Of a DNA stretch of 64,000 nucleotides, positions 470 to 15,055 are shown piece by piece. Where the stretch lies: positions 94,878 to 158,877 of the forward strand of contig DASRJR010000174.1 of assembly GCA_035649395.1 (NCBI GenBank), given 5' to 3'. The notes under the pieces were generated by a model that saw only the letters and a list, made by a program, of their open reading frames with translations, searched no databases and was not told where the DNA came from. The position numbers and the translations under genes were made by a program. This DNA comes from Vicinamibacterales bacterium. GTDB lineage: Bacteria > Acidobacteriota > Vicinamibacteria > Vicinamibacterales > UBA2999. Positions within the stretch are counted from its first letter, which is position 1. The number at the start of each line of letters is the position of its first letter.

Positions 470-615
470 AAGCGCTCAAGTGAGGCCGTGTGTGACGGCC
501 CGAGTAATGTGTCCACGGGTCCCCAACACGGAGACCCTCTCAGTGACCTTCAAAGCCTGTATCGGCTGGAGCCTACTGATCCTTAGGCGCCCTTGTGTCA
601 ATATGTTGGCGCCCC

Positions 616-1989: not shown

Positions 1990-1992
1990 TCG

Positions 1993-2442
1993 ATGCCTCC
2001 GCGATTTGCCTACTGGACGATTCTCGCCGGCGGTTTACCAACCGCCTTTCGTGCGGCCGATCGCGAGGATCTCCTGCCTACCTTCCGACGCATCCAGGAG
2101 AAGCACCCTGATGCTGAGATGAAGTGGTTCGCGCGCGGCAAACTCTGGGCCTCTCCCGAAGACGCCCGCGCCGAACGCGACCGCCCACTCGAGCGCCGCC
2201 ATCGCAGCTGGCGCCCTGGCGGCGATCACCGGGATCGACGCGAATCGTTCAAGACCGCGGCGCGCGAACGCAATCAGGCACGTCGTCAGAAACGGTTCGC
2301 GCGCAAACAGCGGGCGCAGGGCGAGCACCAGACTGACAACCGCTCCGACCGCACGAAGCCGCAGATCGAGACGCGATCCGATCGACCGCGAACACCGCGC
2401 AAGACCGCACCCGGGCAAAATCCACGGAAACGACACCGGTGA
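1993..2442 (+). CDS. hypothetical protein with a highly basic Arg/Lys-rich C-terminal tail
   Basis: 149-aa ORF directly after the NtrC-like gene. It overlaps the next gene in a GTGA junction. No family recognised. Confidence 0.45.
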   Translation: MPPRFAYWTILAGGLPTAFRAADREDLLPTFRRIQEKHPDAEMKWFARGKLWASPEDARAERDRPLERRHRSWRPGGDHRDRRESFKTAARERNQARRQKRFARKQRAQGEHQTDNRSDRTKPQIETRSDRPRTPRKTAPGQNPRKRHR

Positions 2443-2798
2443 TCGTTCACGTTATCTTGTTCACGCCGAAGCCGGGTCTCGACACTGGCGAACGGCAACG
2501 GCTGGCGGATGCGTTTACCGCGGCGGTAACGGAGATCCCTTCGGTCCGTCGTGCGAGAGTGGGTCGACGCGTGACGCACGGCCGGCCGTACGAACAGCTG
2601 ATGCGAATCGACTATTCACATGCGGCGGTCATCGAGTTCGACGACATCGCCGGGCTGCAGGCGTACCTGAACGATCCGGTGCACGACGTCCTCGCGTCGC
2701 GATTCTTCGCGGCGTTCGAACACGCGCTGATGTACGACTTCGATCTGGACGACGCGGAGAGAGGTGTCCGCACGCTCCTCGAAGAGGAGCGTGCGTGA
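2439..2798 (+). CDS. Dabb (stress-responsive alpha/beta barrel) family protein
   Basis: MIVHVILFTPKPG...HAAVIEFDDIAGLQAYLNDPVHDVL matches the Dabb-domain pattern. The start overlaps the upstream stop in a GTGA junction. Confidence 0.7.
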   Translation: MIVHVILFTPKPGLDTGERQRLADAFTAAVTEIPSVRRARVGRRVTHGRPYEQLMRIDYSHAAVIEFDDIAGLQAYLNDPVHDVLASRFFAAFEHALMYDFDLDDAERGVRTLLEEERA

Positions 2799-2820
2799 TG
2801 CGAGATGTGATCGGACTAGT

Positions 2821-4017
2821 TCAGCACGCCGGCGTGTACGCGGACGAGGGCCGATCCTGACGACGCATCGAGGCGCGGGCGGTGCGGTACGGACCGACCG
2901 GCAGATTGCAGTTCTGCTGATAGAGAAACGCGTGGAATCGCTTGTAGTCGGTCGGCGGCAAACCGAACACGCCAAGCAGGGCACGATAGCTCCCGCGCGT
3001 GTGCTCGAGTCCACGATGAATCAACGCCGCGAGATCATCGCGCGTCAGCTCGTGAGCCTTGAACGGCTGGTGAACGACCGTCCAGAAGCTCTCACCAGCG
3101 ATCAGGCGCTCCCACAGTCGATCGGCCGTGCCCGAACCCCGATCGATGCGACGCGGCGCGGTCGCGTTCTGGTCCGGTACGAACGACACGTTCGGTACCG
3201 ACACCGTCGGCGCAGTTTCGCGGCCTCCGCGAATCTCAATCGGCAGATCATCAGCTGTGATCGCGCGATCCCATTCGCGGACGACGAGGCGCTCCGCCAG
3301 GTTCTTCAGTTCGCGCACGTTGCCCGGCCAGCCGTAGGCCACCAGCAGCTGTTCAGCGTCCGCCGTCAGCTCGGGGCAATGCAGCCGATGCGTATCGGCG
3401 GCCCGCCGCAGGTAGTGTTGGAGCAGCAGCAGTACGTCCTCGGCTCGCTCGCGGAGTGGCGGCACGTGAATCTGGATGATGTTCAAACGGAAGTAGAGAT
3501 CCTCGCGGAAGACACCCGCGTCGATCCGCTCGCGTAGATTGCGATTCGTCGCCGTGATCAGACGCACGTCCGAACGGCCGGTCACTCCGTCGACGCCGAT
3601 TGTCTGGATCTCTCCGGTCTCGGCGAAGCGAAGCAACACCGCCTGCATGCGCAAACTCATCTCGCCGAGTTCGTCCAGGAACAAGGTGCCGCGATCGGCC
3701 TGTCGAACGAGGCCCGGCTTGTCACGGTACGCTCCGGTGAAACTTCCGCGCGCGTGTCCGAACAGTTCTGACTCGAGCAGCGTCTCCGGAATCCCACTGC
3801 AGTTCACCGCGACGAACGCACGCGCGACACGTGAACTGTGTTCGTGGATGAGGCGCGCGACGACTTCCTTGCCCGCACCGGTTTCCCCCAGCACGAGCAC
3901 TTTGGCGTCGGTTCTGGCAGCCGCTTCGATCTCGCGACGCAACGCAACGATCGCAGGGCTCTCGCCGAGCAGGACGGGAAGGTTCTTATTTATCCGTGGG
4001 ACAGAAAAGCTCGACAT
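2821..4017 (-). CDS. sigma-54-interacting activator (bEBP-1), PspF-like: AAA+ plus HTH, no N-terminal sensory domain
   Basis: Walker A GETGAGKE, GSFTGAYRDK sigma-54 contact loop, GWPGNVREL. The C-terminal RGSYRALLGVFGLPPTDYKRFHAFL is a Fis-HTH-like variant. I prefer ATG 4017 (MSSFSVP) because it has GGAGAAG upstream. The ORF opens at 4116. Confidence 0.85.
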   Translation of the reverse strand: MSSFSVPRINKNLPVLLGESPAIVALRREIEAAARTDAKVLVLGETGAGKEVVARLIHEHSSRVARAFVAVNCSGIPETLLESELFGHARGSFTGAYRDKPGLVRQADRGTLFLDELGEMSLRMQAVLLRFAETGEIQTIGVDGVTGRSDVRLITATNRNLRERIDAGVFREDLYFRLNIIQIHVPPLRERAEDVLLLLQHYLRRAADTHRLHCPELTADAEQLLVAYGWPGNVRELKNLAERLVVREWDRAITADDLPIEIRGGRETAPTVSVPNVSFVPDQNATAPRRIDRGSGTADRLWERLIAGESFWTVVHQPFKAHELTRDDLAALIHRGLEHTRGSYRALLGVFGLPPTDYKRFHAFLYQQNCNLPVGPYRTARASMRRQDRPSSAYTPAC

Positions 4018-4323
4018 CGCGACGTCTTCTCCAATTCTCAGATAATGAGGTCGGGAATAAGTCTGCCTTTTTGGAGAGACTAAGGTCAACGGTAAAGTCG
4101 CAAAAAGTGCCATCAAAGATCACGTTTTTGCGCAGAATTCTCGTAAACCAGGAACTAAAGCCGGCACATTAGATGTGGGCTTGAGCCCTATAGATCTATT
4201 TTTCAGTCACTTACAGTTTGTGATTGGCGAAACGCCGTCTGTCTAACTCCGAAGTACGAAATTTGTTATCGGGAGCGCACGCAGAGGACACGTCCGCGTC
4301 GACTGTCACAGGGCGGGCAAAGA

Positions 4324-4343
4324 TTTCTCGAATTGGCGAGAAA
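4324..4343 (-). terminator. candidate hairpin just after the GGDEF gene stop
   Basis: The minus strand reads TTTCTCG-CCAATT-CGAGAAA followed by TCTTTGCC. This is a 7-bp stem with only a modest U tract. Confidence 0.3.
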
Positions 4344-4351
4344 ACTGAGCG

Positions 4352-5773
4352 CTAGGCCGGCCTGACGGTGCCGTCCGGCCCGGTTGTGCTGACGCGATTC
4401 TTGCCGGCGCGCTTGGCGTGATACAGCGCGCGATCGGCGCGTTCGATCAGATCTCGCGCGGTCACACCGGGCGGCGACACCGCGACTCCAATGCTTGCCG
4501 TCACGTGGAGCGACGCGAGATCGGGCTCACTCCGCTGGTAGGCCTCGACGCGCTGCCGGATGCGTTCGGCGATCGTCCCCGCGCTCTCCGCGTTGCCACC
4601 AGGCATCATCACCGCGAACTCCTCGCCGCCGAAACGCGTGCACACATCGAAGATGCGCACAGAGCGTCGGAGGATTTCAGAGATGTCGCGGATCACCATG
4701 TCGCCAGCGATGTGTCCGAAGCGATCGTTGATGCTCTTGAATCCATCGAGGTCGACCATGAGCAACGCGACTGATGTTGCTTGTCGAATCGCGCGATGAA
4801 GTTCTTCCTCGAGGCGCGCTTGAAAGTATCGTCGGTTGAAGAGACCGCTCACGGGATCGATCACGGCCGCCTGCGCGTACGCTTGCGCCTCGCGCCACAC
4901 GCGCTCGCGACCGAGCGCAATGGCAACAGGCGCGAGCAACGTCCGCACCGCTGCGACGTCATCGTGCGTGTAGGGCCCCTCGGCAATGCGATCGGTCAGC
5001 GAGAGCACACCGAGCGCATCGGTGCCCGCGACGATCGGGACAACGGCAAACGAGTTCGTGCGATAACGCGAGCGTCGTCGCTCACGTCCGGCGGTTGCCG
5101 ACACATCGGCGACCAGAAGTGGAAGCCGCGATTGAAATACAGTGCCGATGACACCAGCGCCCGGCGCGATTCGCAGATGTTCGACGAGCGCGCGTGGGTA
5201 TCCGTACGTCGACACGATCGACAGTTCACCCTCGGGCGTGGCGACGGCGAGCGACGCCATCCGACTCGGCACCGCCTGCACCACGTGCTGGAGCACGACG
5301 TCGGCAACAGATGCGAGTCCGGTCGTATCTGCGAGCGCGCGTGTCAGTCGATGCGTCAACACGTCGACCGAAAGCGTCGCGACCGGTTCCGGCTCGTGTC
5401 CCGCCAGCAGGCTGTGCCCGAGCTCGCGCAACACGGGGGCTGATTGAGTCCAGTTGCCTTCGATCACGAGAAACACCGGCGAGCGCGGCGCCGTGGCAAG
5501 GCTCACGAGTGTCCACTCGACATCCCCCGTGGTCCAGACACCGATCCCGAGATCCGGTTCGGCACTGAGGCGATCGAACGTGTGCGACTCACCATTCATC
5601 GGGACCGCGAGGATCGGATCGGGCCGCGATTCGGCTGCAAGCACCCACACGCCGCCATGCTTGCCCGCCACCGCGGCCTTCGCGTCGATGATGCGATCGA
5701 TCAGGTTGACCAGCTGCTGGAGAAAGGCGCGTGGGCCGGCGTTCTCGGGTACGCGCTGATACACCCGTAGCAA
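4352..5773 (-). CDS. diguanylate cyclase, GAF-GGDEF, with intact active site and I-site
   Basis: A GAF-like segment is followed by DPVSGLFNRRYF...LLMVDLDGFKSINDRFGHIAGD...RIFDVCTRFGGEEFAVMM. RIFD lies 5 residues before GGEEF, which is the RxxD I-site position. Confidence 0.9.
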   Translation of the reverse strand: MLRVYQRVPENAGPRAFLQQLVNLIDRIIDAKAAVAGKHGGVWVLAAESRPDPILAVPMNGESHTFDRLSAEPDLGIGVWTTGDVEWTLVSLATAPRSPVFLVIEGNWTQSAPVLRELGHSLLAGHEPEPVATLSVDVLTHRLTRALADTTGLASVADVVLQHVVQAVPSRMASLAVATPEGELSIVSTYGYPRALVEHLRIAPGAGVIGTVFQSRLPLLVADVSATAGRERRRSRYRTNSFAVVPIVAGTDALGVLSLTDRIAEGPYTHDDVAAVRTLLAPVAIALGRERVWREAQAYAQAAVIDPVSGLFNRRYFQARLEEELHRAIRQATSVALLMVDLDGFKSINDRFGHIAGDMVIRDISEILRRSVRIFDVCTRFGGEEFAVMMPGGNAESAGTIAERIRQRVEAYQRSEPDLASLHVTASIGVAVSPPGVTARDLIERADRALYHAKRAGKNRVSTTGPDGTVRPA

Positions 5774-5965
5774 CGCGAGCCGTTGCTCAGGAGAGAGGGC
5801 GCGAGGACCAGCCGCCGGCAGCCGTGGGTGTGGGTTCGCCAGTTGAAATCCCTTGTCGAGGAGACATTCCCCCGCGTTTGGGAATCCTGCTTCACCGCTC
5901 TGAACCGCGCGATCACCTTTTCAGGCGCAGTCCAGTAGGGTTATTGATCACTGCCAGCTGAGCTG

Positions 5966-5980
5966 GCAACAAGCGTGCCT
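5966..5980 (-). promoter_or_regulatory. sigma-54 promoter-like motif P1 (upstream of the GGDEF gene)
   Basis: The minus strand reads aGGCACG-CTTG-TTGC against the consensus TGGCACG-N4-TTGC, with correct spacing. It lies about 190 nt upstream of start 5773. Confidence 0.5.
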
Positions 5981-6098
5981 TACACAAAACTGCAAAGGCC
6001 TGTAACTGTTGAGTGACGTCTGGGATATGGCGGTCGCCCCCGGCCGAGGCGACTCGCCATGTCGGATGTGGGACCAGTGACCTGCGCTTGGCCTGAGC

Positions 6099-7214
6099 TT
6101 AGCGGTATTCCTTGAACGGGATCTGGCAGTCGTGCTTCCGCAGGAAGTTCAAAAAGCGCTTGTAGTCGCGGGCCTCCATGTTGAACAACCGCGCCACGAT
6201 CTTATAGTTCCCGCGAGCCTCTTCGAGTCCGCGTCGCACCACCTCGCGCACGTTTGCGCGCGTGATTTCGCGATCCATGAACAGCGGATACACCGCGGTC
6301 CAGAACGACTCGTGCTGCTCGATCATTCGTTTGTAGAGATCGTCGGCAACCGTCCGTCGTCGCTCGCGCTTCGGACGAAGCAGCACTGCGTCGTAAGAGC
6401 GGATCTCGGAAGACAGATGCTCGACTTCGATCGTGGGTCCCGAGACGGTGACGACGAGTCGTTCGATGACGTTCTCGAGCTCGCGCACGTTGCCCGGCCA
6501 CGAGTATTCCGAGAGGGCCTTCATCGCTTCGGGCGAAATGGCGGTGATGTGACCGCGGTTCCCCGAGAACTGCGCCAGGAATTCGTTCGCGAGTACCGGG
6601 ATGTCTTCGCGGCGGTCGCGCAACGGTGGCACGACGATGTGAATCACGTTCAGCCGATAGAACAAGTCCTCACGGAAGGTGCCCTGCTTGATCATTTCGC
6701 GGAGATCGCGGTTCGTGGCTGCGATCACGCGAACGTTGACGATGCGGCCACTCCCATCGGCACCGACCTTCTGGATCTCGCCAGTCTCGAGAAAACGAAG
6801 CAGTAGCCCTTGCATTCGCAGCGTCATCTCGCCGACTTCGTCGAGGAAGATCGTGCCCATGTGGGCAGTCTCGAGCTTGCCGGGCTTGTCGCGATACGCT
6901 CCCGTGAAACTCCCCTTGACGTGGCCGAACAACTCAGATTCGAGCAACGTTTCCGGCAGGCCGGCGCAATTGACCGGCGCGAAGACGTGCCCGGCCCGAG
7001 GGCCGCGCGAGTGAATGGCGCGGGCGACGATTTCCTTGCCGACGCCGCTCTCCCCGGTGATCAACACCTTGGCGTCGGAACGCGCGACGCGATCGATCTC
7101 CTGCTCGAGCGCGGCGACCTCGGCACTGCGGCCGGTCAACTGAACATGAGACCGCGGGCGTAGCGCGCCGACCGGGCTTACGCGATGAGAGGTCTCAGCA
7201 ACACCATCAATCAT
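6099..7214 (-). CDS. sigma-54-interacting activator (bEBP-2), PspF-like, no sensory domain
   Basis: GESGVGKE, GSFTGAYRDKPGK, SWPGNVREL, and C-terminal SFWTAVYPLFMDREITR...RGNYKIVARLFNMEARDYKRFLNFLRKH. ATG 7214 overlaps the stop of the upstream PilZ gene. Confidence 0.9.
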   Translation of the reverse strand: MIDGVAETSHRVSPVGALRPRSHVQLTGRSAEVAALEQEIDRVARSDAKVLITGESGVGKEIVARAIHSRGPRAGHVFAPVNCAGLPETLLESELFGHVKGSFTGAYRDKPGKLETAHMGTIFLDEVGEMTLRMQGLLLRFLETGEIQKVGADGSGRIVNVRVIAATNRDLREMIKQGTFREDLFYRLNVIHIVVPPLRDRREDIPVLANEFLAQFSGNRGHITAISPEAMKALSEYSWPGNVRELENVIERLVVTVSGPTIEVEHLSSEIRSYDAVLLRPKRERRRTVADDLYKRMIEQHESFWTAVYPLFMDREITRANVREVVRRGLEEARGNYKIVARLFNMEARDYKRFLNFLRKHDCQIPFKEYR

Positions 7215-7518
7215 TGTTTATGAACCGTTCAATAAGACGCCGATGCTCCGGCGACATCCCCACGAACGTAGCGCCGATGCGATAACCCGAACCGGCTTCG
7301 GACGGCGTCGACACGCGCTGCACCTGAATGTCCGCCGAGAACGGCGCCCCGGCCAGAGTGAACCGGAGGCTTCCTCGCGCACCCGGATTGAGCAGATGCG
7401 CCGACTGCAGCAACACCCCTGCGGAGCTGATGTCGATCACGCGCACACTCATGTTGGCGGGAAGGTTCACGAACTCGCCGCCGACTTCATGCCGTGGGGA
7501 TCGTCGACGCTCTTCCAT
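7207..7518 (-). CDS. PilZ-domain protein (PilZ-A), canonical c-di-GMP-binding motifs
   Basis: RRSPR matches RxxxR and DISSAG matches DxSxxG. I prefer ATG 7518 because it has GGAGGA 9 nt upstream. The ORF opens at GTG 7575, so the alternative start cannot be excluded. Confidence 0.8.
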   Translation of the reverse strand: MEERRRSPRHEVGGEFVNLPANMSVRVIDISSAGVLLQSAHLLNPGARGSLRFTLAGAPFSADIQVQRVSTPSEAGSGYRIGATFVGMSPEHRRLIERFINND

Positions 7519-7601
7519 CCCTCGAGGTCCTCCGAAAGTGCTCGGAAAGGTACGGAGCCCGGCGCTCTCGCACACGATTTGAGCCTTATGGCGTGACGGG
7601 C

Positions 7602-7617
7602 TGCAAGCAAGTCGCCA
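7602..7617 (-). promoter_or_regulatory. sigma-54 promoter-like motif P2 (upstream of the PilZ-A / bEBP-2 pair)
   Basis: The minus strand reads TGGCGAC-TTGC-TTGCA. The GG and TTGCA elements are at consensus spacing. Confidence 0.5.
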
Positions 7618-7782
7618 TTGTTGGGCAGACCTTTTTCTTCCACGGCAACTTATTACAACGTAATGGCTTATGCCTGAAGGTGGTCCTCAAAGCACAACCG
7701 ATCCGATCCTAGAAAGTCTGGCCGAATCTGGGCTAAGTCACCTGACAGGGAAGACTTTCCGCGCCGTGACGAGACCGGAGTC

Positions 7783-8106
7783 CTACGAGGACGGCCAGTC
7801 GGTGGCGGCAGCGAGCGCCGGAGGTATGGACAAGAACTCGACGCCGACGAGGTACCGGATAGGTTCATCGGGTCCGGAAACTCGCCTGACATGACGCACC
7901 CGGGCGTCCACGGTGATGTCGTGACCGTGTAGCTTCAGGTGGAGAGGCTGGATGGAATCGGGGGGCATGGCCACCGGCGACGTAATCAGTGCTCCATCCC
8001 GGCTGATGTTGACGACTCGCGCGGGCTCGGACAATTCGAGCGTGGCCCAGAGGGCGCCAACGACTTCGAGACGAACGCGCGCACGACGGTCTCCCAACGC
8101 CATCAC
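7783..8106 (-). CDS. PilZ-domain protein (PilZ-B), canonical motifs
   Basis: RARVR matches RxxxR and NISRDG matches NxSxxG. The start (GTG 8106 or ATG 8103) overlaps TGA 8105..8103 of the upstream gene. Confidence 0.8.
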   Translation of the reverse strand: MMALGDRRARVRLEVVGALWATLELSEPARVVNISRDGALITSPVAMPPDSIQPLHLKLHGHDITVDARVRHVRRVSGPDEPIRYLVGVEFLSIPPALAAATDWPSS

Positions 8107-9827
8107 GACCGCCTCCCGTTGCTGAGACCAGAATTCGTGCTCGTTCCCGAGTGCTCACCGCCGAGGGCGTCGGCTCGCGCGTCGCGAACGAGACCATCAG
8201 CACGACCGACCCCTGGTGTTCGACTCGCCACACCGATCAGGATCGATCCGGCCCCGGGCACGCCGCCGACGATCGCGCGCAGCCGGTCAGCGATGCCCTT
8301 CGCATGATGGGTGGTCGTGTCGTGCATCAACAGTCCTATTTCGCCTTCTGCGAGCGTTCCGGCGAGATCCAATGGCCGGAGTTGCCCTCGCATGCCAGCG
8401 ACCCATCGTTGCGTCGCGCCAGGGAAGAACACCGCGTCGCGCACCAGCAGCACGACGACGGTGACCGGAGAGCCGCGCTCGAGAGCCTCCTTGGCCGACC
8501 GCTCAATCACTTCATGGAAACCGCGCGGGGCAGCGCGTCGATCCCGTCCCCCGGCCATGGCGCGGAGTGCAATCGGCGCCCATGCGACAAACATGCTCGC
8601 CGCCGCATTCACCACGTCCTGGTCCCGCGGCGTGAACGGCAGGCTCTCGCTTCGCGCCACGGCGATGGTCGTAGTGTAATGCCGTTCCGATCGCGAGACC
8701 ATCACCAAACGTTCGTCGCTCGACGTGTCGTGCACCCCAGCGCCCGGCGCGGTGACGCGTAATCCGTGGCCGCCGTTACTCGATTCAATCGCAAGCGATG
8801 CCGACGTCCCGCCGACTTCGACTCTCAAGTCGTCGAGCGCTCGCGCTGCGCGGGACTCGATCCGTTCATCGCCATCGGCCAGTCGCCGGCTGATCGCGAC
8901 CATCACGCGAGAAGCCGCTTCGGAGGCTGCCAGGGCGAGCGCGCACTCGAGCAACGCGAGATACGCGCCGAGCCGCTGCACGTCTTGCGCCCCGATCTCG
9001 CCGGTAAACACCAGCAGCCAGGAACGTCCCTCACGCCGCTTGAAGCGTTTGACGTAGACGTCTTCACCAACAGCGAGGCCGAATCGATCGAGGTGGCCCT
9101 GCGGCAGCCGGGTGAGATCGCCGATCTCGGGCAATCCAACCGTCGGGATCGTTGTGGGACGCTCGGTGGTTCTCGTGCCGGGCAGTGTGACGTCGCGCAC
9201 GAACGAGTCGTCGTCGACTTCGATGTATCCCGAGACCTCGATGTCGTGCCAGACGGCGACGGCTTCGCCAAACAGACGCACGAGCTCTCGGTCGGATTCA
9301 CGCTCCGCCGCTTGCGATAGAAGGCGCGCCAGCGGCGCGAGCCGACTGATCCCGCTCGCGTGAAAGGCCGGCGGACTCTGTAAGTGGGCTTCAACCGCAG
9401 TCGACAGCCACGAGCCGACGAGCTGCAGCTGTGCTCGGGATGATTCGGCGTCCTGCGACATCGGCAGCGCCCGGGCAAGGACCAGGACGCCCGGTGAACT
9501 GCGCTCCATCGTCACCGGGAGACAGATGATTTGAAGCCCGTGCAACGCGGTTGATTGGGGTTGACGGGATTGGAGCGCGTTCGAAAGGGCGGAGCGGAGA
9601 ACGGCGTCGCCGGGTTCGAGCAACCCCGACACACTGGGCGTCGCGCCCGCAGCGAACGGAAGCAGCGGCGCGTATCGTTTGTCAACCAACTGCAGATCGA
9701 CCTTGAGACGACGGCGCAATTCGAGCAGCCAGTCCCACGACCGCTCGCGCACCGCCGTTTCGAATGCGGAGGGTTCCTGTGTCACAGGTGATGTGCTGTC
9801 GGTGACGACCATCAGCGGGGCGCACAC
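8103..9827 (-). CDS. large sensory-type protein with a C-terminal degenerate GGDEF domain that retains an RxxD I-site
   Basis: The C-terminus VTVVVLLVRDAVFF...RPLDLAGTLAEGEIGLLMHD...ILIGVASR...DARADAL follows the GGDEF fold pattern. The signature is AEGEI instead of GGDEF, and RPLD lies 5 residues upstream. The N-terminal ~400 aa are unassigned and look GAF-like by eye only. I prefer GTG 9827 because GAGGAAG lies upstream; ATG 9812 is possible. The ORF opens at 10124, inside bEBP-3. Confidence 0.7.
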   Translation of the reverse strand: MCAPLMVVTDSTSPVTQEPSAFETAVRERSWDWLLELRRRLKVDLQLVDKRYAPLLPFAAGATPSVSGLLEPGDAVLRSALSNALQSRQPQSTALHGLQIICLPVTMERSSPGVLVLARALPMSQDAESSRAQLQLVGSWLSTAVEAHLQSPPAFHASGISRLAPLARLLSQAAERESDRELVRLFGEAVAVWHDIEVSGYIEVDDDSFVRDVTLPGTRTTERPTTIPTVGLPEIGDLTRLPQGHLDRFGLAVGEDVYVKRFKRREGRSWLLVFTGEIGAQDVQRLGAYLALLECALALAASEAASRVMVAISRRLADGDERIESRAARALDDLRVEVGGTSASLAIESSNGGHGLRVTAPGAGVHDTSSDERLVMVSRSERHYTTTIAVARSESLPFTPRDQDVVNAAASMFVAWAPIALRAMAGGRDRRAAPRGFHEVIERSAKEALERGSPVTVVVLLVRDAVFFPGATQRWVAGMRGQLRPLDLAGTLAEGEIGLLMHDTTTHHAKGIADRLRAIVGGVPGAGSILIGVASRTPGVGRADGLVRDARADALGGEHSGTSTNSGLSNGRRS

Positions 9828-9862
9828 GAGGACTTCCTCGCCGGGCGCAGCTGTATCGTTGT

Positions 9863-9878
9863 TGCAATCGACCCGCCA
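9863..9878 (-). promoter_or_regulatory. sigma-54 promoter-like motif P3 (upstream of the degenerate GGDEF / PilZ-B pair)
   Basis: The minus strand reads TGGCGGG-TCGA-TTGCA at exact consensus spacing. It is about 37 nt upstream of GTG 9827, with the SD GAGGAAG in between. Confidence 0.55.
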
Positions 9879-10000
9879 GACGGTGTGGCGTCGGTCGCCA
9901 TCGACACATCGACAAATTGGGCCAAAAACGTTGATTCTGCCTGCGGAAAGGACACCGGCTGGCAGACAAAAGCACGAGTATCGCGGACATCCCCGCGGCG

Positions 10001-11176
10001 TCAGCCGACGTGCGCCATCGGCTTGCGCAACGCGGCCTTGGCCGGTAATGGCGGCAGTGCTAAGCGCGGCTGTCGCTGCGGCTGAACCGTGCCATGACGG
10101 AATTCCCTGAAGTCGGCCCCGCATTGATGTGCCGCTAGGAAATTGAGGAAGCGCTTGTAGTCCTGACTCGACATGCCGAAGAGCTTCAGTAACGCGCGGT
10201 AGTTCCCTCGCGTCGTCGTCAGCCCGCGCCTCACCAGTTCCCGCATGTCATGTCGAGTGATGTCCCTGGATAGGAACAGCGGATAGATGTGATCCCAGAA
10301 CGAGTAACCCCCGTGAACCAGCGCTGTATACAGCTCGTCGGAAATCTGGGAGCGGCGCTCGCGCATCGGCAATATCGATTGCGCCGGTACACGTACCGTC
10401 TCCGGGAGGTGCGGCACATCGACGACATCGCCGTGAGACAGCCACATCGCCTGCTCGACGACGTTCTGCAGTTCACGGACATTGCCAGGCCAACGATGGC
10501 GACGAAGGCAGATCATCGCCTCCTCAGTGAAGCGAGCGACGCGCCCAGTCCGCTCGATGAAGTGCGCCACGAGCACCGGAATGTCTTCGCGTCGGTCGCG
10601 CAGCGGCGGCACCTCGACATGAATGACCCGCAACCGGTAAAGGAGATCCTCTCGAAACTGACCCGCTGCAATCAGATCGGCCAGATTTCGATTGGTTGCC
10701 GCAATCACCCGCACGTTGACCGTCGTGACGCGCGTATCGGCTCCGACCGCTTGAATCTCTCCGTTCTCGAGAAACCGCAGCAACATCGCCTGCATGCGCA
10801 GGCTCATCTCACCCACCTCGTCGAGGAAGACCGTGCCCCCATGCGCGGCCTGCAGCTTCCCCGCTTTGTCGCGATACGCGCCGGTGAAGCTGCCCTTCAC
10901 GTGCCCGAACAACTCGGACTCGAGTAACGACTCGGTGAGTCCGGCGCAGTTCACCGGAACATAGGGCTGATTCGCGCGGCGCGATCGGAAGTGAATGCGT
11001 CGCGCGATCAGATCCTTGCCGACACCACTCTCCCCAGTAATGAGCACCTTGCCGTCGGAAATGGCAGCGCGATCCGCCGCGGCAACCAGCGCGTGCATCG
11101 ACGCACTCGCGACGATCAGAGATGAACCGGGACCAAGCGCACTTGGCCCCGGTCCAAGGTGAGAATCGGTCGACAT
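10001..11176 (-). CDS. sigma-54-interacting activator (bEBP-3), PspF-like, no sensory domain
   Basis: GESGVGKD, GSFTGAYRDKAGK, RWPGNVREL, and C-terminal SFWDHIYPLFLSRDITR...RGNYRALLKLFGMSSQDYKRFLNFLAAH. I prefer ATG 11176 (MSTDSH) because GGGAG lies 7 nt upstream. Confidence 0.9.
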   Translation of the reverse strand: MSTDSHLGPGPSALGPGSSLIVASASMHALVAAADRAAISDGKVLITGESGVGKDLIARRIHFRSRRANQPYVPVNCAGLTESLLESELFGHVKGSFTGAYRDKAGKLQAAHGGTVFLDEVGEMSLRMQAMLLRFLENGEIQAVGADTRVTTVNVRVIAATNRNLADLIAAGQFREDLLYRLRVIHVEVPPLRDRREDIPVLVAHFIERTGRVARFTEEAMICLRRHRWPGNVRELQNVVEQAMWLSHGDVVDVPHLPETVRVPAQSILPMRERRSQISDELYTALVHGGYSFWDHIYPLFLSRDITRHDMRELVRRGLTTTRGNYRALLKLFGMSSQDYKRFLNFLAAHQCGADFREFRHGTVQPQRQPRLALPPLPAKAALRKPMAHVG

Positions 11177-11247
11177 CAGTGGCTCCCGTCCACGTATGCT
11201 GCGAGTGTGAAATTCTGTTACCTGCTCAAAGCGGCGCACCTTGAGTC

Positions 11248-11263
11248 AGCAAGTTTCACTCCA
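11248..11263 (-). promoter_or_regulatory. weaker sigma-54 promoter-like motif P4 (upstream of bEBP-3)
   Basis: The minus strand reads TGGAGTG-AAAC-TTGCT. The GG and TTGC spacing is correct, but the -24 element is only TGG. Confidence 0.3.
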
Positions 11264-11413
11264 GCCGGCGATTGCGCGTATTCGCGTCGCGGAGCTCAAT
11301 TCGGCGATCTAGTCCTGGCGAAGGCAGACAATTATCGAGTCCGATTTCGGCGACTCTCGTGAAAGTCTCAGCAGAGTTGTTCACGGCTGGTCAAAGTTCG
11401 ACCTCCGCGCCTG

Positions 11414-11722
11414 CTACGCCCGCCACAACGCCGTCCGGAGACTGTGTGTGCCGGGGGGGTTGGTCCAGAGGAATCGCGCGCCGAGGTGGTAGACCGATCC
11501 GGCGCCGGCAATTGGCTGGCATCTGACGATCTGCACGTCATCGACCAGCTCGCGCCCGTCAATCACGACCCGAATCGAGGCGACGGCACCGACATCGAAC
11601 CGGCGTTCGGTCTCGATCAGGCATCCCGAGGCGCTGCAATTGAGCACCCGCATCTGACAGAGTCGTGTGATGATGCCCAGTCGGTCGGCCGCTGGTGCGT
11701 CGCTACTCCCTTCGTCTCTCAT
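11414..11722 (-). CDS. PilZ-like protein (PilZ-C) with NxSxxG but no clear RxxxR
   Basis: NCSASGCLIE matches (D/N)xSxxG, followed by a beta-rich VVIDGRELV...VYHLGARF. ATG 11722 shares one nt with the upstream stop in a TGATG junction. Confidence 0.6.
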   Translation of the reverse strand: MRDEGSSDAPAADRLGIITRLCQMRVLNCSASGCLIETERRFDVGAVASIRVVIDGRELVDDVQIVRCQPIAGAGSVYHLGARFLWTNPPGTHSLRTALWRA

Positions 11723-12027
11723 CAACGTCGTCCCTGATTCAGCAGATCGCCTTCGTGCTCGTCGATCTGCCGTAACCAAAGGCGATGGCGCACGGCTCCG
11801 TCCGTCATGACAGGTCGGCTCTCGACGACCCTGGCCACGTGTGTGGTGCCGTCGTCGAGTGATTCCACGACAACGGTTTCATCGAGCACACCGGCCTCGC
11901 GGCTCATCGCAATCCACTCGCCCTCTGTCCGTTCGGACAAAACCACATCACGCGTCACCCGCATTACGCCTATAGCGCCATCCGCGATCGTCATTCTCGA
12001 ATAGCTACGCCGCCCCAGCATCCACAC
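11722..12027 (-). CDS. hypothetical small protein, first gene of the PilZ-C pair
   Basis: 101-aa ORF (MWMLGRRSYSRMTIADG...). GAGG lies upstream of the alternative ATG at 12021. No family recognised. Confidence 0.45.
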   Translation of the reverse strand: MWMLGRRSYSRMTIADGAIGVMRVTRDVVLSERTEGEWIAMSREAGVLDETVVVESLDDGTTHVARVVESRPVMTDGAVRHRLWLRQIDEHEGDLLNQGRR

Positions 12028-12066
12028 CTCGACTTCGCACGCACGACAGTGTGCGACAACGTCGCT

Positions 12067-12082
12067 GGCAAGGGCGGTGCCG
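12067..12082 (-). promoter_or_regulatory. sigma-54 promoter-like motif P6 (upstream of the hypothetical / PilZ-C pair)
   Basis: The minus strand reads cGGCACC-GCCC-TTGCc with correct spacing. It lies about 40 nt upstream of start 12027/12021. Confidence 0.5.
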
Positions 12083-12231
12083 CACCGTGCATATCTGAAT
12101 TTCGCCGGTTTGTGCCCGATTTGGAGGGGAGACTCGATCGGCCGGCGAGGTCGGTTCGCGTGCCGCGTTGAGCTTTGTCTGCTGGGGATCAGAATGGGTC
12201 TTGACGACCCTCGAAGCGCGCCGTCGGGGCT

Positions 12232-12588
12232 TTACCGCTTGATCGTGGATAACTTCTCGTTGACGAGGGCCACCAGCGCCGAAGGAGAAATTGGTTTGAC
12301 GACGTAGTCGGCGCCCGCTCGACGAGCCTCGGCCTCAAGAACCTGGTCGGGGAAACCGGTCACGATGATCGTCGGAATTGGACGTGGATTGAGCAGGAGC
12401 AGCTGCAGCCCGTTGAAGCCGCCGAGACGCAGATCGGCGATCACCAGGTCCGGGCTCTCGACTTGAACGGCGTGGCGACCCTCCTGATACGTGCTGGTCG
12501 CGATGACCTCGTGGCCTGCGAGGTTCAGCAGCTCACGATAGCCCGCGCGGGTCGCGTCATCATCCTCAACAATAACGATCTTTGCCAT
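12232..12588 (-). CDS. single-domain CheY-like response regulator
   Basis: MAKIVIVEDDD...DLVIADLRLGGFNGLQLL...IVTGF...YVVKP. It has a receiver domain only. Confidence 0.85.
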   Translation of the reverse strand: MAKIVIVEDDDATRAGYRELLNLAGHEVIATSTYQEGRHAVQVESPDLVIADLRLGGFNGLQLLLLNPRPIPTIIVTGFPDQVLEAEARRAGADYVVKPISPSALVALVNEKLSTIKR

Positions 12589-12815
12589 GAGCGCCTCCCC
12601 GCCCCGCTACGCCGATCTGCGTTCGCACTGCATACCGCCCGATGATAGGCCGATTATGTCTTATGCACACGGTGCGCTCGCACATTGAGTTTTCTGGACC
12701 TGTGCGGTTAGTCCGGAAGATCGAGCGAGCGACATTAGGCCGTTGGCTGTGAATTCATGCGTAATCTCGTGCACTATCGCGTACTCTCGGCGCCTATGGT
12801 GAAGCCACGCCGCAT

Positions 12816-12831
12816 GGGCAGTGGCGTTGCA
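12816..12831 (+). promoter_or_regulatory. sigma-54 promoter-like motif P5 (upstream of PilZ-D / pseudo-PilT)
   Basis: The plus strand reads gGGCAGT-GGCG-TTGCA with correct spacing. The GC is only 16 nt before ATG 12846, so either the mRNA is nearly leaderless or the true start is ATG 12882. Confidence 0.4.
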
Positions 12832-12845
12832 CTCAGTATGGTGTC

Positions 12846-13310
12846 ATGAGCGAGCCGCCTGACGACGAATTCTTCGTGTCCATGCCGGACGGCTCCCTCG
12901 ACGACCTGTTCGCGGGCCTCGAAAAGTCGCTCAAGACCGACCCGTCCGAGCCAGCTGCAGCCGCCACGAGGGAACAGGCGCCGCCAACGGCGGACGCCCC
13001 ACCCGCTCGCGCCGAACGTCGACGCGCGCCGCGACGCGAAGCCCACGAGTTCAAAACGGAACTGCGGCTGGCCGTGGCGGGCTTCCCGATGAAGCTCGTC
13101 AACCTATCGTCCACGGGATTATTGGCCGAAACAAGTCAAAGGTTGTGCCCGGGTCGCACGGTCGATGTTTTCCTGCGATACGGCGGCGTTCGCCGCGTGC
13201 TCCGTGCGACCGTGATTCGATCGTCGATGCACGCCGTCGCACCAACGCCGGTGTTCCGGGCGGCACTTCAGTTCGAAGACACGCTTACCTTGCAGGACGC
13301 TGACTTATGA
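12846..13310 (+). CDS. PilZ-domain protein (PilZ-D) with an acidic/Pro-rich N-terminal extension
   Basis: RRAPR matches RxxxR and NLSSTG matches NxSxxG. The stop overlaps the next start in an ATGA junction at 13307-13310. Confidence 0.8.
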   Translation: MSEPPDDEFFVSMPDGSLDDLFAGLEKSLKTDPSEPAAAATREQAPPTADAPPARAERRRAPRREAHEFKTELRLAVAGFPMKLVNLSSTGLLAETSQRLCPGRTVDVFLRYGGVRRVLRATVIRSSMHAVAPTPVFRAALQFEDTLTLQDADL

Positions 13311-15055
13311 GTTTGCTGCCATCGCTGTGCGCGGCCCTCGAGCGGGCGGGTGGACAACGTCTCATCATGCGGGCCGGTGAACGTCCCCACGTGCTTGCGG
13401 GGGACCGTCGCCACGACGTGGCGACGGCGGTCCTGTCGGTCAATGCCGTCGAAGCGCTCGTCGATCAGATCCTTTCGAGCGACAGCCGCCGTGCCCTCGC
13501 CGAGCGCGGTTCGGTCGAAGAGGTGTTGAATACGCCAGCGTTTCCGCAGCCGCTGACCGCGCGCGCCGAGCGCGTCGGCGACGATTTCTGCGTGGAGTTG
13601 CTCGTGACTACGTCGCAGCCAGAGACAGAACCGGTTCCAGTGAGCAAGCCCGATCATGAACCGCAGCCCGTGGCCGCCATCGAGGAGGTCCCCGCAGACC
13701 TCGCATTGGATGAGGCCGGTCCGCTTCCGGTGACGCCCGTCATCGAGACCTTCCAGGGGTCGCACGAGATCGCGCTCAACGTTGCGTCGCCGACGCCGCG
13801 GGAGACGCCTCGCATTGAACCGCATCCGCCTGTGCGCGTCGTCGCTCGCGTCGAAGAACCGGTCCATAAGCCAACCGTCGTCGCCCGCACCGTGAACGCG
13901 CACACTGATCTTCATGGCTGGATCGCGTACGCGTTCGAGCGCGGGTCGACCACGCTGTTCCTGCGCACGGGTGCCCCGCCTGCCGGCCGCATCAACGAGC
14001 GCATTGCACCGATCAGCGACGAGATCGTCGGTCCCTCTGTCTTCGAAGAGATCGCGTCAATCACGACTCGCGGTGGTGACAGCGCGTGGCGCAGTGTGTC
14101 GGATGGCGAGTGGGCGCGCGATCACGCGGACTTTGGGCACGTTACATGCCGCGCGTTCGACGACGATCAAGGCCAGGGCCTGGTCGTTCACCTGGTTCCA
14201 CGCATCACACCAAAGCTGCTGCACAAGCACATACCCCGCCAGGTGCGCACGGCGTGCGAAGGCGACGGCCTCGTCCTCGTCTCGGCTCAAACTGAAGCCG
14301 AGGTCGCGTCGCTCGCCGCCGCGACGGCAGATTGGAGTGGACGCACCCGTGGCGGATATCTGATCGCGTTGCACCGCCGAGGCGCTCGGACCGAGCTCGC
14401 GGGCGCATTCGTCAGCCAGCGCACGGTGAGCGGCGGCGACGCGGATTTCGCCACAGCGATCCGGCGCGCGGCACACGAGGGACCTGACATTCTGCTTGTG
14501 GTCGGCCCACAAACGGAAACGACGCTTCACGAAGCCGTCCTCGCGGCGGCATCAGGCCGGCTGGTGATCGTCGGAGTGGTCGCGCCGACGGCCACGCAGG
14601 CGTTGCAGACGGTGCTCGGTCACAGCGGACTCGATCGCGACGCCCACGTGCGTCGGGCACTTGCCTCGTCCTTCCGCGTCGCGGTCGGCTATCGAACGCT
14701 GCGGCGGCTGGGTGGGGGACGGATTCTTGTTCAGGACATCGTCACGGCGTCGAAGGACGTCCGCGCGCTGGTTGAAGCCGCCGATTTCAAGGGCCTGACC
14801 GCGTTGATTCGCCGCGGCGTGTCGGGGATGCGCTCGGTCGACGAGGCGCTTGCACGCGCGACCAGACGTCGTCAGGTGTCGCTGCGAGAGGCGGCGGCGC
14901 ATGCCGATGATCGCCGTCAGTTCGTCGCGTTGGTCCGCATGCGCGCACGTGCGAGCCATGGCGCGAGAGCCCGAGACATTCACGGACCGATCTCGCTCGA
15001 CGAACGCAGCAGCGGCCGCGCCGCGAGCGGCGGCAAGCGCGCATCACGCGCCTGA
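13307..15055 (+). CDS. PilT/T2SS-E-fold protein with degenerate ATPase motifs (predicted pseudo-ATPase)
   Basis: The C-terminal half is collinear with PilT: GSTTLFLRTGAPPAGRI, GLVLVSAQTEAEVASLAAAT in place of GLVLVTGPTGSGKST, GPDILLVVGPQTETT in place of DPDIILVGEMRDxET, and SGRLVIVGVVAP in place of TGHLVFxTLHT. No GK[ST] Walker A occurs anywhere in the protein. The N-terminus holds a second PilT-N-like segment and a Pro/Glu-rich linker. Confidence 0.8.
   Translation: MSLLPSLCAALERAGGQRLIMRAGERPHVLAGDRRHDVATAVLSVNAVEALVDQILSSDSRRALAERGSVEEVLNTPAFPQPLTARAERVGDDFCVELLVTTSQPETEPVPVSKPDHEPQPVAAIEEVPADLALDEAGPLPVTPVIETFQGSHEIALNVASPTPRETPRIEPHPPVRVVARVEEPVHKPTVVARTVNAHTDLHGWIAYAFERGSTTLFLRTGAPPAGRINERIAPISDEIVGPSVFEEIASITTRGGDSAWRSVSDGEWARDHADFGHVTCRAFDDDQGQGLVVHLVPRITPKLLHKHIPRQVRTACEGDGLVLVSAQTEAEVASLAAATADWSGRTRGGYLIALHRRGARTELAGAFVSQRTVSGGDADFATAIRRAAHEGPDILLVVGPQTETTLHEAVLAAASGRLVIVGVVAPTATQALQTVLGHSGLDRDAHVRRALASSFRVAVGYRTLRRLGGGRILVQDIVTASKDVRALVEAADFKGLTALIRRGVSGMRSVDEALARATRRRQVSLREAAAHADDRRQFVALVRMRARASHGARARDIHGPISLDERSSGRAASGGKRASRA

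What the first reader, a model, noticed from the sequence alone, without database searches (positions are those of the whole stretch)
8103..9878. Degenerate GGDEF protein that keeps the I-site: candidate c-di-GMP receptor co-transcribed with a PilZ
The C-terminal ~170 aa follow the GGDEF fold (VVVLLVRDAVFF ... RPLDLAGTLAEGEIGLLMHD ... ILIGVASR ... DARADAL). The catalytic GG(D/E)EF is replaced by AEGEI. An RxxD (RPLD) sits exactly five residues upstream, which is the allosteric I-site position. Established examples such as PelD and PopA show that degenerate GGDEF domains can act as c-di-GMP receptors through the I-site. The gene has its own strong sigma-54 motif (P3) and SD, and it overlaps the start of PilZ-B. 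That would place two different c-di-GMP-binding folds in one operon. The ~400-aa N-terminal region is unassigned.
Basis: partly seen in the sequence, partly recalled or inferred. Interest (0 to 1): 0.65.

Follow-up and report, generated by a model that had tools for sequence, protein, structure and literature searches.

The report
Dead GGDEF protein, likely c-di-GMP sensor
This soil-bacterium gene encodes an unannotated protein whose tail is a cut-down, catalytically dead copy of the enzyme domain that makes the signal molecule c-di-GMP but still keeps that domain's c-di-GMP-binding pocket, so it most likely acts as a sensor of the signal within a conserved gene-switch cluster.

Summary
The gene is on the minus strand, with its stop at 8103 and its start at GTG 9827 or ATG 9812. 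Position 9878 is the 5' end of a sigma-54 promoter, not a start codon.

The last ~130 aa are a shortened GGDEF domain:
- Pfam misses it in this protein. A family profile hits solved diguanylate cyclases at E = 3e-8, and hhalign against the neighbouring GGDEF gives 95.8%.
- The AlphaFold model of the domain (pLDDT 83) matches only GGDEF domains in its top 50 PDB hits.

The catalytic site is gone in all 85 diverse relatives. None has GG[DE]EF, and a ~12-residue deletion removes the GTP-binding helices. The inhibitory-site triad R501/D504/R532 (PleD R359/D362/R390) is kept in 85/85 members, and the two arginines are two of only three invariant columns in the whole protein.

The N-terminus is predicted as three GAF/PAS-like domains.

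TGGC-N7-TTGCA lies 45-74 nt upstream of the gene in all 19 loci examined. The gene sits within two genes of a PspF-like sigma-54 activator in 20 of 21 distinct loci. In Vicinamibacteria a canonical PilZ follows it directly.

Most likely it is an output-less c-di-GMP receptor that modulates that activator. Ligand binding and the partner are untested.

The parts
8103..9827 (-). CDS of protein X. It is 574 aa from GTG 9827, or 569 aa from the conserved ATG 9812. Stop is TGA 8105..8103.
   Evidence: ORF list and sequence. The identical 574-aa database protein is P0001. A conserved Met at MVVTD appears in homologs.
9863..9878 (-). Sigma-54 (-24/-12) promoter TGGCGGGTCGATTGCA, 66 nt upstream of ATG 9812.
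   Evidence: TGGC-N7-yTTGCA lies 45-74 nt upstream of the start in 17/17 loci and in the distant L020 and L021. TGGC and TTGCA are the only invariant columns in the upstream alignment A4.
9961..9978 (-). Conserved upstream block CTCGTGCTTTTGTCTGCC, a candidate activator-binding site (UAS) about 85 nt upstream of the -24 element.
   Evidence: TTGT is >=90% conserved in A4 and the block is visible. It also scores as a weak terminator-like hairpin. Its function is inferred only.
9833..9839 (-). Shine-Dalgarno-like GAGGAAG, 5 nt before GTG 9827.
   Evidence: Read from the sequence.
8553..9767 (-). Three predicted alpha/beta sensor-type (GAF/PAS-like) domains: residues 38-167, 180-334 and 340-442 of the 591-aa translation of 8103..9878.
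   Evidence: AlphaFold model, pLDDT 74. Foldseek top hits are PAS-GAF-PHY-GGDEF phytochrome cyclases and DosP, E about 3e-12. There is a weak Pfam GAF_3 hit in domain 1. No significant profile match to a GAF sequence.
8154..8543 (-). Shortened, degenerate GGDEF domain (residues 446-575 of the 591-aa translation).
8367..8378 (-). RPLD, the I-site RxxD (R501, D504).
   Evidence: R is 85/85 and D/E is 85/85 in A3. It aligns to PleD R359/D362.
8337..8351 (-). AEGEI in place of GG(D/E)EF.
   Evidence: Aligned to GGEEF of PleD, WspR and the neighbouring cyclase. There are 72 different pentapeptides among the 85 members and none is GG[DE]EF.
8283..8285 (-). R532, the third I-site residue (PleD R390 equivalent).
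   Evidence: Invariant 85/85. It aligns to the first R of PleD AERIR. The role of PleD R390 is taken from PMC7288161.
7783..8106 (-). PilZ-B, a canonical PilZ (RRARVR, NISRDG). Its start overlaps the stop of X.
   Evidence: Pfam PilZ E=1.6e-8. It lies directly after X in 18 loci, with both motifs conserved.
7602..7617 (-). Second sigma-54 motif TGGCGACTTGCTTGCA, upstream of PilZ-A and the activator.
   Evidence: A similar motif lies upstream of the activator gene in L020.
7207..7575 (-). PilZ-A (RRRSPR, DISSAG). Its stop overlaps the activator start by 8 nt. The likely true start is MEERRR at 7518.
   Evidence: Pfam E=8e-11.
6099..7214 (-). PspF-like sigma-54 activator (AAA+ with GSFTGA, plus a C-terminal HTH and no sensor domain). 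It is the most constant neighbour of X.
   Evidence: Pfam. It aligns to NCBIfam PspF profile positions 2-336 of 336. It is 92-96% identical across genomes and 76-85% identical where X is only 32-40%.
4352..5773 (-). GAF-GGDEF diguanylate cyclase with intact GGEEF and RIFD, the likely local c-di-GMP source.
   Evidence: Pfam GGDEF E=2.8e-45. Syntenic in all Vicinamibacteria loci and in L024.
10001..11239 (-). Second PspF-like activator upstream of X, present only in a sub-clade.

Best explanation
Protein X is a soluble signalling protein of about 570 aa with no output domain. It has three GAF/PAS-like sensor domains followed by a pared-down GGDEF domain. That domain has lost the diguanylate-cyclase active site but keeps the allosteric inhibitory site.

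Proposed mechanism:
1. c-di-GMP, made for instance by the neighbouring GAF-GGDEF cyclase, binds the I-site triad R501/D504/R532. It probably binds as an intercalated dimer, as in PleD, WspR and PelD.
2. Binding changes the conformation or oligomeric state of X.
3. X then acts in trans on the adjacent PspF-like sigma-54 activator, which has no sensor domain of its own. It may act directly or through the co-translated PilZ proteins.
4. X itself is transcribed from a sigma-54 promoter, so this would close a feedback loop.

Shown here:
- GGDEF homology and fold.
- Loss of all catalytic determinants.
- Near-absolute conservation of the I-site.
- The conserved sigma-54 promoter.
- Conserved linkage to the activator, PilZ and the cyclase.

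Inferred only:
- c-di-GMP binding.
- The activator as the target.
- The direction of regulation.
For: GGDEF origin:
- The A3 profile hits solved cyclases (3ign E=3.1e-8, WspR 1.7e-7), and 26 of 30 hits are GGDEF proteins.
- hhalign gives 95.8%, E=7e-9, with negative controls <0.5%.
- 22 of 85 relatives hit Pfam GGDEF.
- The domain model has pLDDT 83 and its top 50 Foldseek hits are all GGDEF domains.

Dead A-site:
- No GG[DE]EF in 85 of 85 members, and the deletion between beta1 and RxxD is present in 84 of 85.
- hhalign places a 12-residue gap over the 'GHIAGDMVIRDI' segment of the neighbouring cyclase.
- The equivalents of the metal-binding Asp, N335 and K442/R446 are not conserved.

I-site:
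- R501 is 85/85, D504 is 79 D plus 6 E, and R532 is 85/85. The 5-residue spacer is invariant.
- Only three columns are invariant in the whole 569-aa alignment, and two of them are these arginines.
- This triad is required for c-di-GMP binding in PleD and PelD (PMC7288161; PMC7112168) and in SgmT (PMC3509222).

Context:
- A sigma-54 promoter is present in 19 of 19 loci examined.
- The order X, PilZ-B, PilZ-A, activator, GAF-GGDEF is fixed in 16 genomes.
- The activator ortholog is adjacent in distant loci L020, L022 and L023, and a 50%-identical activator is adjacent in L021.
- The activator has PspF architecture, that is, no regulatory domain.
Against: - No binding or activity data exist for any family member.
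- Pfam and NCBIfam do not recognise the domain in this protein.
- RxxD and the R390-equivalent are among the commoner conserved residues of GGDEF domains in general.
- The secondary arginine that completes the site in PleD (R313, or R148/R178) has no clear conserved equivalent. R497 (83/85) and the RR447-448 pair are only candidates.
- The X-to-activator link rests on gene neighbourhood alone.
- In L024, X is followed by the cyclase rather than an activator, on a short contig.
- The N-terminal GAF/PAS assignment rests on a model of moderate confidence.
Confidence: 0.65

Rival explanations
1. X is a pseudo-enzyme partner of the neighbouring GAF-GGDEF cyclase. Its dead GGDEF domain pairs with the active one. 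c-di-GMP bound at the I-sites cross-links the pair into a non-productive arrangement, so X tunes c-di-GMP synthesis rather than transcription.
For: - The cyclase is syntenic in all 16 Vicinamibacteria genomes.
- In the very distant locus L024 it is the gene directly after X.
- Cyclases work as GGDEF dimers, and I-site ligand cross-links GGDEF domains (PMC7288161).
Against: - L020, L021, L022 and L023 have an activator but no cyclase next to X within the fetched DNA.
- X and the cyclase are in separate transcription units.
- The N-terminal domains of X show no profile similarity to the cyclase GAF domain.
Confidence: 0.15
2. The GGDEF remnant is only a structural or dimerisation module. R501/D504/R532 are kept for folding or for another ligand such as (p)ppGpp, GTP or another cyclic dinucleotide. 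The real signal would be sensed by the three N-terminal domains.
For: - The N-terminal domains are at least as conserved as the C-terminus. W210 is invariant and long motifs are invariant within Vicinamibacteria.
- PleD structures with ppGpp or pppGpp bound exist among the hits (9g85, 9g86).
- In SgmT the I-site mutants had no phenotype (PMC3509222).
Against: - The three conserved residues are exactly the experimentally defined c-di-GMP triad, in the exact register, while everything else in the domain drifts. There are 72 different pentapeptides at the active-site position.
- The island is full of c-di-GMP parts: four to five PilZ proteins and an active cyclase.
Confidence: 0.15
3. X is still an active, unorthodox diguanylate cyclase, like the AGDEF enzyme VCA0965.
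For: - A degenerate first position can be tolerated (title and abstract of PMC3974145).
- The fourth-position acidic residue is kept: E in 66 members and D in 14.
Against: - The third-position acidic residue is G or R in most members.
- The metal-binding Asp and the phosphate-binding Lys/Arg are not conserved.
- The helix pair carrying the guanine-binding Asn/Asp is deleted.
Confidence: 0.03

Closest known systems
PelD (Pseudomonas aeruginosa, Bacillus cereus), a GAF plus degenerate-GGDEF c-di-GMP receptor
   Same: - A GAF-type domain is followed by a catalytically dead GGDEF domain.
- That domain binds c-di-GMP through RxxD plus a downstream Arg: PelD-Pa R367/D370 plus a third Arg, and PelD-Bc R363/D366/R395, KD about 100 nM (PMC7112168).
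- X keeps the same triad in the same register.
   Different: - PelD is membrane-anchored, sits in a pel polysaccharide operon and acts post-translationally on a synthase.
- X is soluble (no TM segment) and has three N-terminal domains.
- X has a shorter GGDEF core and sits with sigma-54 activators and PilZ proteins.
- No PelD chain appeared among the listed hits of the PDB sequence searches.
PopA (Caulobacter) and SgmT (Myxococcus), degenerate A-site with intact I-site receptors
   Same: The I-site of a dead GGDEF domain is used as the receptor. Binding controls localisation or partner interaction rather than catalysis (PMC3509222).
   Different: - PopA and SgmT carry receiver or kinase modules and full-length GGDEF domains.
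- X has neither, and its A-site region is physically deleted.
PleD / WspR-type active cyclases with product inhibition
   Same: They are the best sequence and structure matches. The I-site residues R359/D362/R390 correspond to R501/D504/R532.
   Different: They are active enzymes with GG(D/E)EF, metal-binding and GTP-binding residues. X lacks all of these.
FimX-PilZ-PilB (Xanthomonas), and trans-regulated activators such as PspA-PspF and NifL-NifA
   Same: This is an analogy only.
- A degenerate-domain c-di-GMP receptor works with a small PilZ protein on a hexameric AAA+ ATPase (the FimX entry is in PMC7288161).
- An activator lacking a sensor domain is controlled by a separate protein (my own knowledge of PspA-PspF and NifL-NifA).
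   Different: - FimX senses c-di-GMP through its EAL domain and targets a pilus motor, not a transcription activator.
- No homology between X and PspA or NifL was found.
- No interaction was tested here.

Membership tests
GGDEF domain superfamily (PF00990 fold) | Significant sequence-profile similarity to GGDEF domains | tested here: met
   - The family profile against PDB gives E=3.1e-8 (3ign), and 26 of 30 hits are GGDEF proteins.
- hhalign gives 95.8%, E=7e-9.
- 22 of 85 relatives hit PF00990.
- The window protein alone is below the Pfam threshold.
GGDEF domain superfamily (PF00990 fold) | Palm-like beta-alpha-beta-beta-alpha-beta fold with a hairpin carrying the signature motif | tested here: met
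   - The domain model has pLDDT 83.4.
- The top 50 Foldseek PDB hits are all GGDEF domains, TMq 0.59-0.73.
- One of the two helices between beta1 and beta2 is shortened or missing.
Active diguanylate cyclases | GG(D/E)EF signature with two acidic residues | tested here: not met
   The window protein has AEGEI. None of 85 family members has GG[DE]EF.
Active diguanylate cyclases | Metal-binding Asp in beta1, guanine-binding Asn/Asp in alpha1/alpha2, and phosphate-binding Lys/Arg (PleD D327, N335, D344, K442, R446) | tested here: not met
   - The corresponding columns are unconserved, or deleted by a 12-residue gap.
- The residue roles come from PMC7288161 and PMC3509222. The role of D327 is from my own knowledge.
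Degenerate-GGDEF I-site c-di-GMP receptors (PelD, PopA, SgmT type) | Intact RxxD exactly five residues before the degenerate signature | tested here: met
   RPLD plus 5 residues plus AEGEI. R is 85/85, D/E is 85/85 and the spacer length is 5 in 85/85.
Degenerate-GGDEF I-site c-di-GMP receptors (PelD, PopA, SgmT type) | Third I-site arginine in helix alpha3 (PleD R390, PelD-Bc R395, SgmT R794) | tested here: met
   R532 is invariant in 85/85 and aligns to PleD R390.
Degenerate-GGDEF I-site c-di-GMP receptors (PelD, PopA, SgmT type) | Measured c-di-GMP binding that depends on the I-site | not testable with these tools
   This needs ITC, DRaCALA or a capture-compound assay with wild type and R501A/D504A/R532A.
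GAF / PAS sensor domains (N-terminal region) | Sequence-profile match to GAF or PAS families | tested here: inconclusive
   - Only weak GAF_3 hits were found: E=0.006 here, and 3 of 85 members with best E=1.6e-5.
- hhalign against the neighbouring GAF gives <2%.
- The fold-level match to PAS-GAF-PHY modules has E about 1e-7 to 1e-12 but low TM.
Sigma-54-dependent genes | Conserved -24 GG / -12 GC promoter (TGGC-N7-TTGCA) at the right distance upstream | tested here: met
   Present in 19 of 19 loci, 45-74 nt from the start. These are the only invariant columns upstream. Transcription itself was not tested.
PilZ c-di-GMP receptors (downstream gene PilZ-B) | RxxxR and (D/N)xSxxG motifs | tested here: met
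   RRARVR and NISRDG are conserved in 18 orthologs. Pfam PilZ E=1.6e-8.

The most novel reading that the evidence does not exclude
X, the two PilZ proteins and the sensor-less PspF-like activator form a previously undescribed c-di-GMP-to-sigma-54 switch that is widespread in soil Acidobacteriota. In it the activator is controlled entirely in trans by dedicated c-di-GMP receptors: a stripped-down GGDEF I-site receptor plus PilZ adaptors made in fixed stoichiometry by translational coupling. The switch drives its own genes and the local cyclase from sigma-54 promoters. In at least one lineage (L023) it also sits directly upstream of polysaccharide-export genes.
Probability: 0.3. Interest if true: 0.7.

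Novelty: new variant of a known kind. Interest (0 to 1): 0.5.

Why it matters
Degenerate GGDEF domains that sense c-di-GMP through the I-site are an established class. This one defines a large family with no annotation: at least 478 clusters at 50% identity, no Pfam or NCBIfam model, and every named entry is 'hypothetical'. It occurs in Vicinamibacteria and related Acidobacteriota, abundant soil bacteria whose signalling is almost unstudied.

It is a natural minimal I-site module. The catalytic half of the domain has been deleted while the binding triad is frozen. That makes it useful for asking what a GGDEF domain needs in order to bind c-di-GMP.

Its fixed association with a sensor-less sigma-54 activator and paired PilZ proteins points to a testable route from c-di-GMP to sigma-54 transcription. 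This route would differ from the known cases, such as FleQ and VpsR, where the activator itself binds the nucleotide.

Tried and rejected
- Pfam and NCBIfam on the single protein gave no GGDEF call. The relationship only emerged with family profiles and structure.
- The A3 alignment was too diverse for a genome scan. The A1-based scan found only Vicinamibacteria/Acidobacteriota MAGs and no cultured strain.
- A plain count of sigma-54-like motifs in the window is not above chance: 48 found against 58 expected. The promoter claim therefore rests on position and cross-genome conservation, not on enrichment.
- Sigma-70 promoter and terminator scans of 5700..12700 were at chance level.
- Profile comparison of the three N-terminal domains with each other and with the neighbouring GAF domain gave nothing. 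Their GAF/PAS label is structural only.
- I considered that X is a recent duplicate of the neighbouring GAF-GGDEF gene and rejected it. Identity in the GGDEF part is only 27% and there is no N-terminal similarity.
- I considered a membrane protein like PelD and rejected it. The maximum 19-residue hydropathy is 1.59, inside a predicted beta-strand.
- Literature searches found no paper on this family or on a PilZ / PspF-like activator / degenerate GGDEF module.
Full report
**1. What is at the coordinates**

The minus strand carries an ORF ending at TGA 8105..8103. It is the first base of the motif TGGCGGGTCGATTGCA (9878..9863).

The real start is one of two positions:
- GTG 9827, preceded by GAGGAAG at a 5-nt spacing. 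This gives 574 aa, identical to database protein P0001.
- ATG 9812 (MVVTD...). This is the first conserved residue in homologs and the annotated start in many of them.

Residue numbers below refer to the 591-aa translation of 8103..9878. Subtract 22 for the 569-aa protein.

**2. Is the C-terminus a GGDEF domain?**

Pfam does not say so for this sequence; it gives only a weak GAF_3 hit. All deeper tests agree that it is.

- Sequence searches against PDB:
  - phmmer and a close-family profile gave only weak hits, but nearly all were diguanylate cyclases in the same register.
  - An exhaustive HMMER search found 478 clusters at 50% identity.
  - A profile of 85 full-length members with 23-54% identity (A3) hits solved cyclases significantly: 3ign E=3.1e-8 and WspR 1.7e-7. 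Of the 30 hits, 26 are GGDEF proteins.
- Profile comparison: hhalign of the C-terminal profile against the GGDEF domain of the neighbouring gene gives 95.8% probability, E=7e-9. The three N-terminal domains score <0.5% as controls (the smaller profile is).
- Pfam on relatives: 22 of the 85 relatives reach Pfam GGDEF at E<=0.01.
- Structure:
  - An AlphaFold model of residues 446-580 has pLDDT 83.4. Its top 50 Foldseek PDB matches are all GGDEF domains, TM about 0.7.
  - The full-length model (pLDDT 74) best matches PAS-GAF-PHY-GGDEF phytochrome cyclases and DosP.

**3. Catalytic site**

AEGEI (8351..8337) aligns with GGEEF.

Among the 85 relatives there are 72 different pentapeptides at this position, and none is GG[DE]EF. 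Only the fourth position (E/D in 80 of 85) and the fifth (I/V in 80 of 85) are kept.

The other catalytic determinants are also missing:
- A deletion between strand beta1 and RxxD is present in 84 of 85 members. hhalign places a 12-residue gap over 'GHIAGDMVIRDI' of the neighbouring cyclase. This is the helix region that carries the guanine-binding residues (D344 role from PMC7288161).
- The columns matching the beta1 metal-binding Asp, N335 and K442/R446 are not conserved (K442/R446 roles from PMC3509222).

Cyclase activity is therefore very unlikely.

**4. Inhibitory site**

RPLD (8378..8367) lies exactly five residues before AEGEI. In A3 the Arg is 85/85, the Asp is 79 D plus 6 E, and the spacer length is 5 in 85/85.

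R532 (8285..8283) is also 85/85. In the HMMER alignment it pairs with the first Arg of PleD 'AERIR', which is R390. The review PMC7288161 states that the I-site is formed by R359, D362 and R390 of PleD plus R313 of a neighbouring domain.

The same triad is required for binding in other proteins:
- B. cereus PelD: R363, D366 and R395, KD about 100 nM (PMC7112168).
- SgmT: mutating the RxxD Arg R763 abolished capture of c-di-GMP in vitro (PMC3509222).

Only three columns are invariant in the whole 569-aa alignment: W210, R501 and R532. The strongest selection in the protein therefore falls on the c-di-GMP-binding arginines, while the catalytic motif drifts freely. This is the main argument that the domain is a receptor.

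R497 (83/85) and the RR447-448 pair (77-78/85) are candidates for the extra arginine that completes the site. That is speculation.

**5. The N-terminal 420 residues**

The model shows three alpha/beta domains joined by long helices: residues 38-167, 180-334 and 340-442.

Fold matches are to tandem PAS/GAF/PHY modules. Sequence support is limited to weak GAF_3 hits in the first domain, and profile comparisons are negative.

The protein has no predicted membrane segment and no recognisable output domain.

**6. Promoter and operon**

TGGC-N7-yTTGCA lies 45-74 nt upstream of the start in the window and in all 16 other loci checked. It is also present in L020 (about 40% identity) and L021 (about 26%).

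In a 13-locus alignment of the upstream 187 nt, mean identity is 46%. The only invariant columns are TGGC and TTGCA. Motif counts in the window alone are not above chance, so the evidence here is positional conservation.

A second conserved block, CTCGTGCTTTTGTCTGCC (9978..9961), may be an activator-binding site.

PilZ-B starts at GTG 8106 or ATG 8103 and so overlaps the stop of X. It carries both PilZ binding motifs, RRARVR and NISRDG, which are conserved in 18 orthologs.

**7. Genomic context**

All related genomes found are Vicinamibacterales/Vicinamibacteria or Acidobacteriota MAGs.

In the 16 distinct genome loci, the genes after X run in this order: PilZ-B, PilZ-A, activator, GAF-GGDEF, second activator. 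In two loci the held DNA ends before the last genes.

- PilZ-A's stop overlaps the activator's start.
- PilZ-A has its own sigma-54 motif at 7617..7602.
- The activator is AAA+ with GSFTGA plus a C-terminal HTH. It aligns end to end with the PspF profile, so it has no sensor domain.

The activator is far more conserved than X:
- It is 92-96% identical where X is 57-77%.
- It is 76-85% identical where X is 32-40%.

In distant loci the constant neighbour is this activator:

| Locus | Gene arrangement |
|---|---|
| L020 | X, then the activator; no PilZ |
| L021 | X and an activator, divergently transcribed |
| L022 | X, then the activator |
| L023 | X, PilZ, a second PilZ-like gene, the activator, then Wza/Wzz-type polysaccharide export genes |
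| L024 | X, then the GAF-GGDEF cyclase; short contig |

**8. Interpretation**

Well supported:
- A dead, truncated GGDEF domain.
- An intact I-site under strong selection.
- Transcription from a conserved sigma-54 promoter.
- Co-transcription with a canonical PilZ.

Inferred:
- c-di-GMP binds the I-site.
- X, which is all sensor and no output, acts on the neighbouring activator, which is all output and no sensor. It may act through the PilZ proteins.

The analogies are FimX-PilZ-PilB and PspA-PspF or NifL-NifA. They are analogies only.

Rivals, in order of weight, are a pseudo-enzyme partner of the adjacent cyclase, a purely structural or other-ligand domain, and a residual cyclase (unlikely).

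**9. Novelty**

The receptor principle is known from PelD, PopA and SgmT. The family has no Pfam or NCBIfam model. Every source name in the listing is 'hypothetical protein'.

What is new:
- The physically deleted A-site.
- The triple sensor-domain architecture.
- The fixed association with a sensor-less sigma-54 activator and PilZ pairs.

I found no paper on this in four literature searches. I rate it a new variant of a known kind, of moderate interest. It would be of higher interest if the trans-acting c-di-GMP-to-sigma-54 switch is real.

Noticed in passing
window 12846..13310 (+) and 13307..15055 (+): A 154-aa PilZ protein (RRxxxR, NLSSTG) overlaps, by ATGA, the start of a 582-aa protein. 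Residues ~198-548 of that protein are PilT/PilU-like (PDB 9n32, E=2e-21). The segment I judged by eye to correspond to the Walker A loop reads SAQTEAEV, so it may be a pseudo-ATPase. This is the third translationally coupled 'PilZ + partner' pair in the island.
   Followed up: partly
window 7207..7575 (-) / 6099..7214 (-); motif 7617..7602 (-): The PilZ-A stop overlaps the start of the PspF-like activator by 8 nt, and the same order and spacing recur in all related loci with both genes. The pair has its own sigma-54 motif TGGCGACTTGCTTGCA, so the activator may be autoregulated and PilZ-A may be its c-di-GMP-sensing partner.
   Followed up: partly
window 6099..7214 (-) and orthologs in L001-L023: The sensor-less activator is unusually conserved. 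It is 92-96% identical across genomes where X is 57-77%, and 76-85% identical where X is only 32-40%.
   Followed up: partly
window 9978..9961 (-); also window ~7760..7710 (-) and L020 9660..9760: A conserved TTTTGTCT(G/T)CC block lies about 85 nt upstream of the X promoter. AAAGTCT...AGACTTT inverted half-sites lie upstream of the activator-operon promoter in the window and in distant L020. These are candidate activator-binding sites.
   Followed up: partly
window 11722..12027 (-) and 11414..11779 (-): Two more small genes lie upstream of the second activator. PilZ-C matches Pfam PilZ at E=1e-4 and has RRARRR and NCSASG. The overlapping 101-aa ORF has an RRxxxR motif but no Pfam hit. Both are present only in the sub-clade that has the upstream activator.
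   Followed up: partly
window 595..15055: A dense regulatory island of about 15 kb holds four sigma-54 activators (three PspF-like, plus one REC-AAA-HTH_8 at 595..1989 +), four to five PilZ proteins, one GAF-GGDEF cyclase, one stand-alone receiver (12232..12588 -, 83-98% conserved) and X. It lies next to the Dus/NusG-like/SurA/Mfd housekeeping genes.
   Followed up: partly
L023 9696..13217: In a distant relative's locus, the order X, PilZ, second PilZ-like gene, activator is followed directly by Poly_export (Wza-like) and Wzz/GNVR genes. This hints that exopolysaccharide export is a target of the switch.
   Followed up: no
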